Origin: Escherichia coli
GTDB lineage: Bacteria > Pseudomonadota > Gammaproteobacteria > Enterobacterales > Enterobacteriaceae
NCBI RefSeq assembly: GCF_051903065.1
Contig: NZ_CP178438.1
Strand: one strand, 5' to 3'
Length of the DNA: 64,000 nucleotides
A model generated the notes under the pieces. The model did no database searches. It had not been told where the DNA came from and saw only the letters and a list, made by a program, of their open reading frames with translations. Positions 23,367-42,086 of this stretch are shown here, in pieces. Within the stretch, counting starts at the first letter, position 1; each line of letters starts with the position of its first letter. Position numbers and translations under genes: made by a program.

Positions 23367-23387
23367 TCTTTTTGTTTGAAAAATAAA

Positions 23388-23417
23388 GTCTTAGCGTTCT
23401 GCGTTAAGACTTTTTTT
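23388..23417 (+). terminator. kdsA intrinsic terminator
   Basis: Hairpin GTCTTA..TAAGAC followed by T7. Confidence 0.5.
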
Positions 23418-23513
23418 ATGGGTGCCGGATACAAAAAGGGCCGCAGGCTGTTACCCCTGCGGCCGGTTTCGGGCGCATATTGCCATCACGGCAGCCTGAC
23501 GCCCGTTTTCATC

Positions 23514-23621
23514 TTACTTCCGGTTACGCCACCAGCTGACAATCGCTGCGGTAATAATTCCCGCCAGGATCGGTGCTGCCAGGTCGTGCCAGAAAATCAT
23601 GGCAAACTGCGCGAGCGTCAT
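23514..23621 (-). CDS. ldrA: type I toxin Ldr (35-aa membrane peptide), copy 1
   Basis: Minus-strand ATG..TAA translating MTLAQFAMIFWHDLAAPILAGIITAAIVSWWRNRK; followed on the minus strand by hairpin GGCCGCAGG..CCTGCGGCC plus U-run (23430-23464). Confidence 0.9.
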   Translation of the reverse strand: MTLAQFAMIFWHDLAAPILAGIITAAIVSWWRNRK

Positions 23622-23668
23622 ATAGCCGCCTTGTTGTAATGACAACATTTTGCGGCTATTCTTGAATT

Positions 23669-23736
23669 GTTGATGGTTCAAGATTAGCCCCCGTTCTGTT
23701 GTCAGGTTTTACCTCTCAACGTGCGGGGGTTTTCTC
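23669..23736 (+). ncRNA. rdlA: Rdl antisense RNA (antitoxin), copy 1; ends approximate
   Basis: Plus-strand promoter-like TTGTAA-17bp-TATTCT (23634-23662), then about 66 nt ending in hairpin GCCCCCG..CGGGGG plus TTTTCTCTTT (23687-23740). Lies in the ldr leader on the opposite strand. Placement inferred from sequence; not confirmed against a reference. Confidence 0.45.
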
Positions 23737-24049
23737 TTTCCAGCAACCAATGCCACCAGGGATAAAGCCCCCGCAACATTGCGCCTCACCGGATAACGCC
23801 GGCTTGGTGTGGATACTACGACTCAATTCATCTTCACTTCATCCCTGAAATGTTTGCAATGAAGAGTGCATTCCGGTTTTTCAACAGCTGTTACAGTCGT
23901 TTCATGAGTGCTCTGGATGATGCTTCCAGCTCGGGTTGCCAATATTTACTTGTGGAAGTGATAAAGACAAAAATGGCCGCAGGCTGTTACCCCTGCGGCC
24001 GGTTTCGGGCGCATATTGCCATCACGGCAGCCTGACGCCCGTTTTCACC

Positions 24050-24157
24050 TTACTTCCGGTTACGCCACCAGCTGACAATCGCTGCGGTAATAATTCCCGC
24101 CAGGATCGGTGCTGCCAGGTCGTGCCAGAAAATCATGGCAAACTGCGCGAGCGTCAT
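24050..24157 (-). CDS. ldrB: type I toxin Ldr, copy 2 (identical peptide to copy 1)
   Basis: Same 108-nt ORF 536 bp downstream of copy 1. Confidence 0.9.
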   Translation of the reverse strand: MTLAQFAMIFWHDLAAPILAGIITAAIVSWWRNRK

Positions 24158-24204
24158 ATAGCCGCCTTGTTGTAATGACAACATTTTGCGGCTATTCTTG
24201 AATT

Positions 24205-24272
24205 GTTGATGGTTCAAGATTAGCCCCCGTTCTGTTGTCAGGTTTTACCTCTCAACGTGCGGGGGTTTTCTC
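24205..24272 (+). ncRNA. rdlB: Rdl antisense RNA, copy 2; ends approximate
   Basis: Same promoter and terminator arrangement, shifted 536 bp. Confidence 0.45.
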
Positions 24273-24585
24273 TTTCCAGCAACCAATGCCACCAGGGATA
24301 AAGCCCCCGCAACATTGCGCCTCACCGGATAACGCCGGCTTGGTGTGGATACTACGACTCAATTCATCTTCACTTCATCCCTGAAATGTTTGCAATGAAG
24401 AGTGCATTCCGGTTTTTCAACAGCTGTTACAGTCGTTTCATGAGTGCTCTGGATGATGCTTCCAGCTCGGGTTGCCAATATTTACTTGTGGAAGTGATAA
24501 AGACAAAAATGGCCGCAGGCTGTTACCCCTGCGGCCGGTTTCGGGCGCATATTGCCATCACGGCAGCCTGACGCCCGTTTTCACC

Positions 24586-24693
24586 TTACTTCCGGTTACG
24601 CCACCAGCCGACAATCGCTGCGGTAATAATTCCCGCCAGGATCGGTGCCGCCAGGTCGTGCCAGAAAGTCATGGCAAACTGCGCGAGCGTCAT
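24586..24693 (-). CDS. ldrC: type I toxin Ldr, copy 3 (variant peptide)
   Basis: Translates MTLAQFAMTFWHDLAAPILAGIITAAIVGWWRNRK; differs from copies 1 and 2 at two residues (I9T, S29G). Confidence 0.9.
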   Translation of the reverse strand: MTLAQFAMTFWHDLAAPILAGIITAAIVGWWRNRK

Positions 24694-24740
24694 ATAGCCG
24701 CCTTGTTGTAATGACAACATTTTGCGGCTATTCTTGAAGT

Positions 24741-24808
24741 GTCTGGTTTCAAGATTAGCCCCCGTTTTGTTGTCAGGTTTTACCTCTCAACGTGCGGGGG
24801 TTTTCTCT
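24741..24808 (+). ncRNA. rdlC: Rdl antisense RNA, copy 3; ends approximate, 5' region diverged
   Basis: Terminator hairpin conserved (AGCCCCCG..CGGGGG + TTTTCTCTTT) but the upstream 20 bp differ from copies 1 and 2 (GAAGTGTCTGGTTTCAAG versus GAATTGTTGATGGTTCAAG). Confidence 0.4.
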
Positions 24809-25097
24809 TTCCAGCAACCAATGCCACCAGGGATAAAGCCCCCGCAACATTGCGCCTCACCGGATAACGCCGGCTTGGTGTGGATACTACGTCTCAATTC
24901 ATCTTCACTTCATCCCTGAAATGTTTGCAATAAAGAGTACATTCCGGCTTTTCAACAGCTGTTGCAGTGGTTTCGTGCAGGTTGTGGTACAGGCTCGCAA
25001 TTCTGATTAACGACCTGTCCAGGTAGTATGAAGAAATACAATAAGCAGGAATTTATATTATCTCCCCCGATTTCCGTCATCGGAGGAGATATAACTG

Positions 25098-26198
25098 TCA
25101 GGCAAATATCGTCATCAAATAGGCGGCAAACAGTGCCAGATGCGCTGCGCCATTGAGCACGTTAGTACGTCCGGTGGAGAAGGAGATATGGCACAGCACT
25201 AAAGAGGCCACCATCACCACCATTTCTGGCGCACCAAGTGCAAACTGCAATTCGTTACCCGTCATAAATGCAATTAGCGTGACGACAGGTACGGTAAGCG
25301 AAATTGTTGCTAACACTGAACCAAAGAACAGATTCATCGCGCGCTGGACCTGGTTGTTCAACACTGCTTTTAATGCACCTAAACCTTCCGGCGACAGAAT
25401 CAACAGTGCCACCAGGAAGCCAGTAAAGGCGACAGGGGCATTCATGCTGTCGAGCAAAGTCTCCAGCGGGCTGGCGTTCATTTTGGTGACTGCAATAACG
25501 GCAATCAGGTGGATAATCAACCAGATAGCATGCCACAGGCTGCTATGGGCAGACGGTTTACCGTGGTGCGGGTCGTCGTCATCACTGTCATCTTCGTGCT
25601 CGTAGACAAACAAACTTTGATGCGTTTTGGTCTGGATCAGCAAAAATACGCCATACATTGCCGCAGAAATTAATGCTACCAGTAACGCCTGACCGGTTGA
25701 AAAATTCGCCGCAGGCAGAGCCATTGGAAATACCAGTACGATTATCGCCAGGGGGAACAGCGCAATTAAATACTGCTTAATACCAAACAGATTCATATAT
25801 TGGGTGGCAAACTTACGACCGCCCAACAATAATGAAAAGCCGACCAGCCCACCGGTAACAATCATAATGATCGAATAGAGCGTATCACGCATTAGCGTTG
25901 GCGCGGCGTCGCCGGTTGCCATTAAAGCTGAAATCAAACTGACTTCAAGAATAACCACTGAAAGGCTAAGAATAAGCGAACCGTAAGGTTCTCCCAGGCG
26001 ATGGGCTAATACGTCCGCATGACGGACAACACTAAAGGCGCTACTTAAAATACCAATAAGCGCAAGAAGATTGATGGCAATGACCACTGGTAGTGTCTGG
26101 CTGCTTCCCCACAGGAACAGCACTACCAGCGCCAGAACCGGGAAAATAAGCGAAGTCTCCTTGTGGCGGGTTTTTACCGCCTCTTGAGCATTTGACAT
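25098..26198 (-). CDS. chaA: Na+/K+(Ca2+):H+ antiporter ChaA
   Basis: ORF 25098..26285; trimmed to MSNAQEAVKTRHKETSLIFPVLALVVLF (366 aa). Confidence 0.93.
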   Translation of the reverse strand: MSNAQEAVKTRHKETSLIFPVLALVVLFLWGSSQTLPVVIAINLLALIGILSSAFSVVRHADVLAHRLGEPYGSLILSLSVVILEVSLISALMATGDAAPTLMRDTLYSIIMIVTGGLVGFSLLLGGRKFATQYMNLFGIKQYLIALFPLAIIVLVFPMALPAANFSTGQALLVALISAAMYGVFLLIQTKTHQSLFVYEHEDDSDDDDPHHGKPSAHSSLWHAIWLIIHLIAVIAVTKMNASPLETLLDSMNAPVAFTGFLVALLILSPEGLGALKAVLNNQVQRAMNLFFGSVLATISLTVPVVTLIAFMTGNELQFALGAPEMVVMVASLVLCHISFSTGRTNVLNGAAHLALFAAYLMTIFA

Positions 26199-41712: not shown

Positions 41713-41882
41713 TGGTGGTGGGGGAAGGATTACTAGCGCTTCGCCCTTCGGGTCGTTGCCTGCGGCAACGCTTTCTCGCTGGCGCTCGAGTCGAACCTTA
41801 GTCGAAGCTTCTCATCCTTCCCCGCTTGGGCAGAATATTTAATTACGGATTCGTTTGAGAGTTCAGGGACTTTTGAAAGTGA
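41713..41882 (-). repeat. tyrT-operon 3' repeat unit (rtT/tpr region), ending in a 19-nt copy of the tRNA-Tyr 3' end
   Basis: TGGTGGTGGGGGAAGGATT at 41713-41731 repeats the tRNA 3' end about 170 bp downstream of tyrV; only about one unit is present here. Confidence 0.6.
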
Positions 41883-41967
<85 letters not shown>

Positions 41968-42001
41968 AGGGGTAATTCAAATTTCGAGGTAATGCTTGAG
42001 A

Positions 42002-42086
<85 letters not shown>

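What the first reader, a model, noticed from the sequence alone, without database searches (positions are those of the whole stretch)
23630..23740. Sequence-defined antisense sRNA unit in each repeat: promoter TTGTAA-17-TATTCT to GCCCCCG/CGGGGG terminator
The plus strand has a near-consensus sigma70 promoter (23634-23662) and, about 66 nt downstream, a GC-clamped hairpin followed by TTTTCTCTTT. This fixes the antitoxin RNA about 50-115 nt upstream of the toxin start codon on the opposite strand, so it would pair with the toxin mRNA leader rather than the coding region. My from-memory coordinates would put rdl about 120 bp further from the ldr start, but that region has no terminator, so I trust the sequence-derived placement.
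Basis: inference. Interest (0 to 1): 0.4.

Follow-up and report, generated by a model that had tools for sequence, protein, structure and literature searches.

The report
Known Rdl antitoxin sRNA genes

Summary
Confirmed and already known. The window is an E. coli chromosome segment (about 98.7% identical to MG1655) with kdsA, three tandem 536-bp LDR repeats and chaA. Rfam's rdlD model (RF01813) matches full length at 23670-23735, 24206-24271 and 24741-24806 (84-92 bits against a gathering score of 50). K-12 annotates rdlA 48 nt beyond the ldrA start codon, which is window 23669-23735. Published Term-seq puts the RdlD 3' end at ...CGGGGGUUUUCU(C), equivalent to 23735/23736. A published TSS table puts the RdlD 5' end 7 nt after TATTCT, equivalent to 23669. 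One overstatement: the promoter matches only 8 of 12 consensus positions, and matches of that quality occur 264 times in this window. It is credible because TTGNNA-17-TAT(T/C)CT is kept in all 43 distinct family units from seven genera and because the start is mapped. Rdl pairs with nt 71-137 of a roughly 185-nt ldr leader, not with the ribosome-binding site. How it represses is still unsettled in the literature. My family comparison shows the ldr ribosome-binding site is structurally closed, which favours an indirect, hok/mok/Sok-like mechanism.

The parts
23634..23639 (+). rdl promoter -35 hexamer TTGTAA (copy 1). On the opposite strand it lies in the ldr leader just 5' of the ldr SD, within the GUUGUCAUUACAAC element.
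   Evidence: Sequence. TTGNNA sits at this position, exactly 17 bp before the -10, in 43 of 43 distinct family units.
23657..23662 (+). rdl promoter -10 hexamer TATTCT (copy 1). Its complement overlaps the ldr anti-SD AUAGCCGC (23652-23659).
   Evidence: Sequence. TATTCT is found in 26 units and TATCCT in 17 of the 43. The annotated or listed K-12 rdl starts lie 7 nt downstream.
23669..23736 (+). Rdl antitoxin sRNA, copy 1 (rdlA equivalent), 67-68 nt. It has a 5' single-stranded tail, then a long hairpin that also serves as the intrinsic terminator.
   Evidence: Rfam RF01813 at 23670-23735, 83.6 bits. K-12 rdlA 1269323-1269389 maps here. RdlD Term-seq 3' ends fall at UUUUCU / UUUUCUC. Fold z = -5.3.
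23686..23739 (+). Terminator hairpin (outer stem AGCCCCCGU/GCGGGGGUU, inner stem UGUUG/CAACG plus AGG/CCU) with the U-rich tail UUUUCUCUUU.
   Evidence: Rfam structure line, terminator scan, 95% of cells paired across 43 units.
23514..23621 (-). ldr toxin ORF, copy 1 (35 aa, identical to K-12 LdrA).
   Evidence: ORF list. Pfam PF13940 Ldr_toxin, 86 bits, E = 1.7e-24. K-12 annotation.
23433..23805 (-). Predicted ldr mRNA, copy 1 (about 373 nt): 184-nt leader, ORF, 3' UTR and terminator hairpin at 23439-23464. Rdl is complementary to nt 71-137 of this mRNA.
   Evidence: The 5' end is placed by homology to the listed ldrD TSS 3700272. Terminator. Fold -159.9 kcal/mol, z = -6.4. The 5' hairpin and the terminator co-vary across the family.
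23626..23630 (-). ldr Shine-Dalgarno sequence GGCGG, predicted to be base-paired in every context tested.
   Evidence: Anti-SD/SD helix is 95.3% paired in 40 units. Predicted unpaired probability of the SD is about 0.2 or lower.
23679..23681 (-). TTG inside the Rdl target that opens a reading frame reaching the ldr start codon (candidate leader ORF). In copies 1 and 2 of this window it is in frame with ldr (55-codon ORF 23514-23681).
   Evidence: The TTG also lies in a co-varying RNA stem.
24170..24272 (+). Copy 2: promoter (24170-24198) and Rdl sRNA (24205-24272), identical to copy 1. Its ldr ORF is at 24050-24157 (-).
24706..24808 (+). Copy 3: promoter (24706-24734) and Rdl sRNA (24741-24808), identical to K-12 rdlC. 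Its ldr ORF is at 24586-24693 (-).
   Evidence: Rfam 91.8 bits. Exact match to the annotated K-12 rdlC sequence..

Best explanation
The unit is the rdl gene of a type I toxin-antitoxin LDR repeat (ldr/rdl), and the window holds three of them, equivalent to rdlA, rdlB and rdlC. SHOWN: a sigma-70-type promoter, TTGTAA-17-TATTCT, starts transcription at G23669. The transcript ends at the U-rich tail of a long GC-clamped hairpin, at about 23735/23736, giving a 67-68-nt RNA. It is made from the strand opposite the ldr toxin mRNA and is perfectly complementary to nt 71-137 of the roughly 185-nt ldr leader. It therefore ends 48 nt short of the start codon and does not touch the Shine-Dalgarno sequence. 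FROM THE LITERATURE: RdlD blocks LdrD toxicity and inhibits its translation, the duplex is cut by RNase III, and the mechanism is described as unknown. INFERRED (my best guess, about 50%): repression is indirect, as in hok/mok/Sok. The ldr Shine-Dalgarno sequence is held closed by a conserved anti-SD hairpin, whose anti-SD strand is the complement of the rdl -10 region. In the full-length mRNA it is also held closed by pairing with the 3' UTR. Ldr synthesis would then need ribosomes that enter upstream and read through this structure. Rdl covers that upstream entry region, which includes a TTG about 60 nt upstream of the ldr ATG whose frame always stays open to the ldr AUG, and so prevents opening. 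RNase III cleavage of the duplex adds to this.
For: Identity and boundaries: Rfam rdlD matches at full length. The K-12 rdlA/B/C/D annotations sit at the same offset from ldr. The listed TSS equals the annotated start. Term-seq 3' ends fall at UUUUCU|C. The fold has z = -5.3. Promoter hexamers and spacing are kept in 43 of 43 units from Escherichia, Salmonella, Citrobacter, Kluyvera, Klebsiella, Pseudocitrobacter and Pluralibacter. The adjacent ORF is a Pfam Ldr_toxin. [quoted passage not shown] Mechanism: reviews list 'inhibit protein synthesis' and the unconfirmed ldrX coupling proposal. A p19-captured dsRNA cluster and rnc effects are reported at ldrD/rdlD. The anti-SD/SD helix is 95% paired in 40 units. 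The SD is predicted closed with or without the Rdl target masked. The 3' UTR/pre-SD helix is 97% paired with compensatory changes. The TTG frame is open to the ldr AUG in 43 of 43 units across three different frame relationships.
Against: Nothing argues against the identity or the boundaries. Several points weaken the coupling mechanism. The +2 control frame is also open in 35 of 43 units, so frame openness is weak evidence. Six Klebsiella units have TCG instead of the TTG, and that change is compensated in an RNA stem (CUUG/CAAG to CUCG/CGAG), so the 'TTG' may be conserved for structure and not as a start codon. The encoded leader peptide is not conserved in frame. No ribosome-profiling or toeprint data were found. 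The curated Term-seq list reports a terminator 3' end only for rdlD; for rdlA/B/C it lists only an internal end at nt 38. All structures are predictions.
Confidence: 0.93

Rival explanations
1. Rdl works mainly by mRNA destruction. The 67-bp Rdl/ldr-leader duplex is a substrate for RNase III, and cleavage in the leader inactivates or destabilises the toxin mRNA. Any effect on translation is secondary.
For: A roughly 21-nt p19-captured dsRNA cluster lies in the ldrD/rdlD overlap. It maps to RdlD nt 8-41 after I shift the paper's older coordinates by 1977. The ldrD and rdlD half-lives rise slightly in an rnc mutant. Term-seq shows abundant internal 3' ends at Rdl nt 38 in rdlA/B/C, close to the edge of that cluster.
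Against: The rnc effects are described as slight. Reviews classify Ldr/Rdl as inhibiting protein synthesis. In hok/Sok and several other type I systems RNase III cleavage is dispensable for repression.
Confidence: 0.25
2. Rdl flips an RNA switch. In free ldr mRNA the Rdl-target segment (GGGGCUAAUCUUGAA and UGACAAC) would hold the anti-SD and the pre-SD element, leaving the SD open. Rdl binding would release the anti-SD so that it closes the SD.
For: The helices nest into two coherent states, and each is at least 95% paired across 40 units. There is a compensatory change between UG(A/G)CAAC in the Rdl target and GUUG(U/C)CA next to the SD: GC in 26 units, AU in 13.
Against: This was tested and not supported. 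Masking the Rdl target leaves the predicted SD accessibility unchanged (0.20 vs 0.20 in the leader context), and the SD hairpin forms in both states in every example inspected. The covarying position is shared by three mutually exclusive helices and reflects few evolutionary events.
Confidence: 0.08
3. The promoter-like and terminator-like elements are only the reverse-strand shadow of conserved ldr-leader RNA structure, and no separate sRNA is made here. A variant is that the real rdl lies about 120 bp further from ldr.
For: The promoter matches only 8 of 12 positions, and such matches are common. Its -10 and -35 overlap ldr-leader elements that are themselves constrained (anti-SD and pre-SD hairpin).
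Against: A TSS and primary 3' ends are mapped for RdlD at exactly the homologous positions. Northern detection of rdlD is reported. The curated K-12 genes lie at this offset. There is no Rfam match or plus-strand terminator further downstream in the repeat.
Confidence: 0.02

Closest known systems
rdlA/rdlB/rdlC/rdlD of E. coli K-12 (Rfam RF01813; Kawano et al. 2002, Mol Microbiol 45:333, as cited in PMC4147584)
   Same: Same genomic context (kdsA-LDR x3-chaA). Same offset from ldr (48 nt), same promoter hexamers, same hairpin terminator, same length. Copy 3 is base-for-base K-12 rdlC.
   Different: The window is another E. coli strain. Copies 1 and 2 carry one extra base in the 5' tail of Rdl (GUUGAUGG instead of GUUCUGG or GUCUGG). 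This allele is also seen in E. coli E69 and Escherichia sp. E1V33. Copies 1 and 2 score 83.6 bits against 91.8 bits for copy 3 in the Rfam search; they differ from copy 3 in this 5' tail and at one further base.
hok/mok/Sok of plasmid R1 (type I TA with a leader ORF and fold-back inhibition)
   Same: A stable toxin mRNA with a long leader. The antisense RNA binds upstream of the toxin RBS. An overlapping upstream reading frame has been proposed (ldrX). I predict pairing between the translation-initiation region and the 3' UTR, with covariation. RNase III cuts the duplex.
   Different: There is no sequence homology and the toxin family differs (Ldr/Fst). Leader-ORF translation and 3' processing have not been shown for ldr. 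The candidate TTG start is missing in Klebsiella units.
Fst/RNAI-RNAII (par of pAD1), the homologous toxin superfamily
   Same: The toxin peptides are considered homologous (Ldr/Fst).
   Different: [quoted passage not shown] In ldr/rdl it lies opposite the 5' leader.

Membership tests
Rfam RF01813 rdlD antitoxin | Covariance-model score at or above the curated gathering score (50 bits), over the full model length | tested here: met
   83.6, 83.6 and 91.8 bits, model positions 1-66 of 66, at 23670-23735, 24206-24271 and 24741-24806.
ldr/rdl (LDR) type I toxin-antitoxin locus | A 35-aa Ldr toxin ORF on the opposite strand next to the sRNA gene | tested here: met
   ORFs at 23514-23621, 24050-24157 and 24586-24693. 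The two distinct peptides (copies 1/2 and copy 3) match Pfam PF13940 Ldr_toxin at 86 and 91.6 bits, cut-off 27.
ldr/rdl (LDR) type I toxin-antitoxin locus | The sRNA is cis-encoded antisense to the toxin mRNA 5' UTR and does not overlap the RBS or start codon | tested here: met
   Rdl at 23669-23736 against ldr ATG at 23619-23621. The ldrD TSS 185 nt upstream of its ATG places the whole overlap inside the leader. Stated in review PMC4147584.
ldr/rdl (LDR) type I toxin-antitoxin locus | Long direct repeat of about 530 bp, in tandem between kdsA and chaA in E. coli | tested here: met
   Three copies with a 536-bp period and 97% mean column identity. Flanks match K-12 kdsA and chaA.
ldr/rdl (LDR) type I toxin-antitoxin locus | Own promoter and intrinsic terminator, with transcript ends mapped experimentally | tested here: inconclusive
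   Mapped for the K-12 paralogue rdlD (TSS 3700136; 3' ends 3700201/2) at the homologous positions. Not mapped for this strain. The curated Term-seq list gives only an internal end for rdlA/B/C.
ldr/rdl (LDR) type I toxin-antitoxin locus | Toxin overproduction kills and the cognate Rdl relieves toxicity | not testable with these tools
   Reported for LdrD/RdlD in the literature.
hok/mok/Sok-type regulation (works-like comparison, not membership) | A translated leader ORF coupled to toxin translation, with its start blocked by the antisense RNA | tested here: inconclusive
   The TTG frame is open to the ldr AUG in 43 of 43 units, but a control frame is open in 35 of 43. The TTG is absent in 6 Klebsiella units and sits in a co-varying stem.

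The most novel reading that the evidence does not exclude
The sRNA gene itself is known, but how Rdl represses is described as unknown as late as 2021. The family comparison suggests that ldr mRNA is built like hok mRNA. The SD is always closed, by an anti-SD that doubles as the rdl -10 region. The pre-SD segment and initiation region pair with the 3' UTR, with compensatory changes. A reading frame that starts inside the Rdl target runs to the ldr AUG. If true, Rdl acts by blocking upstream ribosome entry. The one-base allele in copies 1 and 2 of this strain would then turn the leader frame into an N-terminal extension of the toxin (55 codons) instead of a 20-codon frame ending in an ATGA overlap.
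Probability: 0.3. Interest if true: 0.4.

Novelty: already known. Interest (0 to 1): 0.1.

Why it matters
For the scan it matters little. It shows that reading promoter and terminator from sequence can place a known 67-nt antitoxin RNA to the base, and can correct a faulty remembered coordinate. Biologically, ldr/rdl is a classic type I toxin-antitoxin system whose repression mechanism is still unresolved. The side observations give concrete mutations and probing experiments that would test the hok-like coupling model. These observations are a closed Shine-Dalgarno sequence, covarying 3' UTR pairing, a co-varying hairpin over the candidate leader start, and a natural frame-shifting allele.

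Tried and rejected
1. Covariation support for the Rdl hairpin. The Rfam structure is 95% paired across 43 units, but the stems are invariant and no better than shuffles. Part of this is an ascertainment artefact, because my genome scan pattern fixed TTAGCCCCCG and CGGGGGTTTT.
2. An Rdl-driven anti-anti-SD switch. The helices nest neatly and are conserved. However, masking the Rdl target did not change predicted SD accessibility in 40 units, in either the leader-only or the full-length context. Rejected as unsupported.
3. Open-frame conservation as proof of a leader ORF. The TTG frame is open in 43 of 43 units, but the +2 frame is open in 35 of 43, so the evidence is weak.
4. The upstream ATG ORF (23702-23779, minus strand, 25 aa) as a conserved peptide. 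Its ATG becomes GTG, ACG or GCG in some genera. Its length and stop position vary. Its variable sites behave like G-U-neutral stem positions, so there is no coding signature.
5. The window as K-12. The 5-kb K-12 stretch is not an exact substring; identity is 98.7%.
6. Papers I could not obtain: Kawano 2012 (RNA Biol), Thomason 2015 (dRNA-seq) and Fozo 2008 (MMBR) are not held. The primary paper, Kawano 2002, is cited only through reviews.
7. About 15 loci from the genome scan (Rothia, Phycisphaerae, Oscillospiraceae and others) are unrelated terminators and were dropped.

Full report
WHAT IS THERE

The region 23,370-25,100 lies between a kdsA homologue (plus strand) and a chaA homologue (minus strand). 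It holds three tandem copies of a 536-bp repeat with 97% mean column identity. The window is E. coli but not MG1655: the corresponding 5 kb of NC_000913.3 aligns at 98.7% identity. The 601-bp query around the finding is found in 5,425 of 5,426 complete E. coli genomes.

Each repeat carries a 35-codon ORF on the minus strand, at 23514-23621, 24050-24157 and 24586-24693. These match Pfam PF13940 Ldr_toxin at 86-92 bits against a cut-off of 27.

THE OBSERVATION

TTGTAA (23634-23639), a 17-bp spacer and TATTCT (23657-23662) are present as described, and again at 24170-24198 and 24706-24734. Downstream lies a long hairpin with outer stem AGCCCCCGU/GCGGGGGUU at 23686-23731, followed by UUUUCUCUUU. 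The 72-nt RNA from 23669 folds to -27.7 kcal/mol with z = -5.3.

The Rfam rdlD model (RF01813) matches over its full 66 positions at 23670-23735 and 24206-24271 (83.6 bits each) and at 24741-24806 (91.8 bits). The gathering score is 50 and the E-values run from 3.9e-16 to 2.7e-18.

Two corrections apply.
- The promoter is not 'near-consensus'. It matches 8 of 12 positions and was missed by the >=9/12 scan. Sites of that quality occur 264 times in this window.
- The stems show no compensatory changes in my data.

BOUNDARIES AGAINST ANNOTATION AND EXPERIMENT

- **K-12 annotation.** K-12 annotates rdlA at 1269323-1269389, starting 48 nt beyond the ldrA start codon. rdlB, rdlC and rdlD have the same geometry. 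Transferred to the window, rdlA is 23669-23735. Copy 3 is identical to the annotated rdlC sequence from 24741.
- **5' end.** In every K-12 copy the annotated start is the 7th base after TATTCT. A published TSS table lists the rdlD TSS at that same base, 3700136.
- **3' end.** Term-seq in MG1655 (Adams et al. 2021, PMC7815308, Supplementary file 1) lists primary RdlD 3' ends at 3700201 and 3700202. I verified on the K-12 sequence that these fall at ...CGGGGGUUUUCU|C. The homologous window bases are 23735 and 23736.

IS IT MORE THAN CHANCE?

A scan of one genome per species found 43 distinct rdl/ldr units in Escherichia, Salmonella enterica subsp. arizonae and diarizonae, Citrobacter, Kluyvera, the Klebsiella oxytoca group, Pseudocitrobacter and Pluralibacter.

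All 43 have TTGNNA (TTGCAA 29, TTGTAA 10, TTGTCA 3, TTGAAA 1), exactly 17 bp, and then TATTCT (26) or TATCCT (17). The distance from the -10 to the hairpin is 19-21 bp. Part of this conservation must come from the ldr leader on the other strand (see below), so it does not prove promoter function on its own. Together with the mapped start it is convincing.

WHAT RDL PAIRS WITH

The listed ldrD TSS (3700272) lies 185 nt upstream of the ldrD ATG. By homology the copy-1 ldr mRNA starts at about 23805 and ends at the terminator at 23439-23464, giving about 373 nt. Rdl is complementary to nt 71-137 of this mRNA. The SD (GGCGG, 23626-23630) and the AUG lie 39-48 nt beyond the 3' edge of the duplex.

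MECHANISM

What the literature says:
- RdlD counteracts LdrD toxicity and inhibits its translation.
- A leader ORF, 'ldrX', coupled to ldr has been proposed by analogy to mok/hok but not confirmed.
- A 2021 review calls the mechanism 'currently unknown'.
- A p19-captured dsRNA cluster lies in the ldrD/rdlD overlap. It corresponds to RdlD nt 8-41 after I shift the paper's older coordinates by 1977. Both RNAs are slightly stabilised in an rnc mutant.

What I looked for in 40 full-length units (alignment A3):

(a) Both UTRs are more conserved than the toxin ORF.

(b) The predicted full-length mRNA is very stable: -159.9 kcal/mol, z = -6.4.

(c) A set of helices is 93% paired, exceeds all 500 shuffles and exceeds every slid control. 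It includes:
- the 5' hairpin and the terminator, both with compensatory changes;
- a hairpin GGCUAAUCUUGAA/UUCAAGAAUAGCC, with five pairs changed on both sides;
- a 10-bp helix between the pre-SD segment GUUG(U/C)CAUU(A/G) and the 3' UTR, 97% paired with pair types C-G, U-G and U-A.

(d) The anti-SD AUAGCCGC (23652-23659, the complement of the rdl -10 region) pairs with GCGGCUAU next to the AUG in 95% of cells.

(e) The SD is predicted to be closed in every context.

A TTG about 60 nt upstream of the ldr ATG, inside the Rdl target, opens a frame that reaches the ldr AUG in 43 of 43 units. It is either in frame with ldr (28 units), or ends in an ATGA overlap with the ldr start (11 units), or lies in the third frame (4 units). 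However, a control frame is open in 35 of 43 units. Six Klebsiella units have TCG, with a compensating CAAG-to-CGAG change in the opposite stem arm. The TTG may therefore be kept for structure.

My own alternative was an Rdl-triggered anti-anti-SD switch. It failed its test because masking the Rdl target did not change predicted SD accessibility.

I therefore rank the mechanisms as follows:
- indirect translational repression of the hok/mok/Sok type: about 0.5;
- RNase III-driven inactivation as the main route: about 0.25;
- a structural switch: below 0.1.

The identity of the element is not in doubt (0.93 or higher).

COMPARISON AND NOVELTY

The element passes every testable membership criterion for Rfam rdlD and for the ldr/rdl LDR locus. 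Toxicity and antitoxin function cannot be tested here, and the transcript ends are mapped for the K-12 paralogue, not for this strain.

It differs from the K-12 genes only by strain-level polymorphism. Most notably, copies 1 and 2 have one extra base in the Rdl 5' tail, an allele also seen in E. coli E69 and Escherichia sp. E1V33.

Verdict: already known and correctly read by the first stage. Interest is low.

Noticed in passing
window 23669-23681 and 24205-24217 (compare copy 3 at 24741-24752): Copies 1 and 2 carry one extra base in the Rdl 5' tail (GTTGATGG) relative to all four K-12 copies. On the ldr strand this puts the TTG-initiated leader frame in frame with ldr (55-codon ORF 23514-23681). 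In copy 3 and in K-12 A/B/C the leader frame is instead 20 codons ending in an ATGA overlap with the ldr start. The same allele occurs in E. coli E69 (L016) and Escherichia sp. E1V33 (L039).
   Followed up: partly
K-12 1269360, 1269895, 1270430 (equivalent to window about 23707, 24243, 24778): Term-seq (Adams 2021, supplementary file 1) lists abundant 'internal' 3' ends at Rdl nt 38, in the loop of the inner hairpin (CAGGU|U), for rdlA, rdlB and rdlC, but no terminator end for these three. Only rdlD has the terminator end. This could reflect processing (RNase III or RNase E), or loss of multi-mapping reads over the identical 3' halves. The position is close to the edge of the p19 dsRNA cluster (RdlD nt 8-41).
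   Followed up: partly
window 23433-23805 minus strand (ldr mRNA nt 158-194 with nt 301-334): The ldr translation-initiation region and the segment just 5' of it are predicted to pair with the 3' UTR. The 10-bp pre-SD/3' UTR helix co-varies across genera (C-G, U-G, U-A). An invariant GGCGC/GCGCC pair links the 5' leader to the 3' UTR. This resembles hok fold-back inhibition. I found no open-access paper describing it for ldr.
   Followed up: partly
window 23630-23643 (GTTGTAATGACAAC) and 23697-23703 (GTTGTCA): The element around the rdl -35 is a near-palindrome. On the ldr strand its GUUG(U/C)CA segment has three mutually exclusive conserved partners: a local hairpin, UG(A/G)CAAC inside the Rdl target, and the 3' UTR. 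All three co-vary at one position (U/A in Escherichia and Pseudocitrobacter, C/G elsewhere). Rdl itself contains the same GUUGUCA.
   Followed up: yes
L034:10937-11310 (Kluyvera ascorbata); also L032 and L058: These units keep the ldr-type leader and rdl, and in L034 also the 3' UTR. However, they encode an unrelated 30-aa hydrophobic peptide (MTFREALVIAVVTSIIGPIVVALVCHFCNI) with no Pfam match. This looks like a swap of the toxin ORF inside a conserved regulatory frame.
   Followed up: partly
L059 (503-bp contig labelled Bacillus sp. EB106-08-02-XG196, coverage 0.66): The contig contains an rdlD-type sequence whose core and flanks are identical to the Escherichia sp. E1V33 D-type unit (L038). 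This is most likely enterobacterial contamination of that assembly.
   Followed up: no
window 41713-42086 minus strand: One RtT RNA (RF00391, 118.9 bits) and two tRNA matches (82 nt each). This is the tyrT-tyrV region of E. coli and is unrelated to the finding.
   Followed up: no
window 23702-23779 minus strand (and 24238-24315, 24773-24850): A 25-codon ATG ORF (MLRGLYPWWHWLLERENPRTLRGKT) starts at nt 27 of the ldr leader and stops inside the Rdl target. In Citrobacter-type units it is 33 codons and its UGA overlaps the downstream UUG (UUGA). Its ATG is not universal, and its variable sites behave like stem positions, so there is no coding signature. A relay of reinitiation events is conceivable but untested.
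   Followed up: partly
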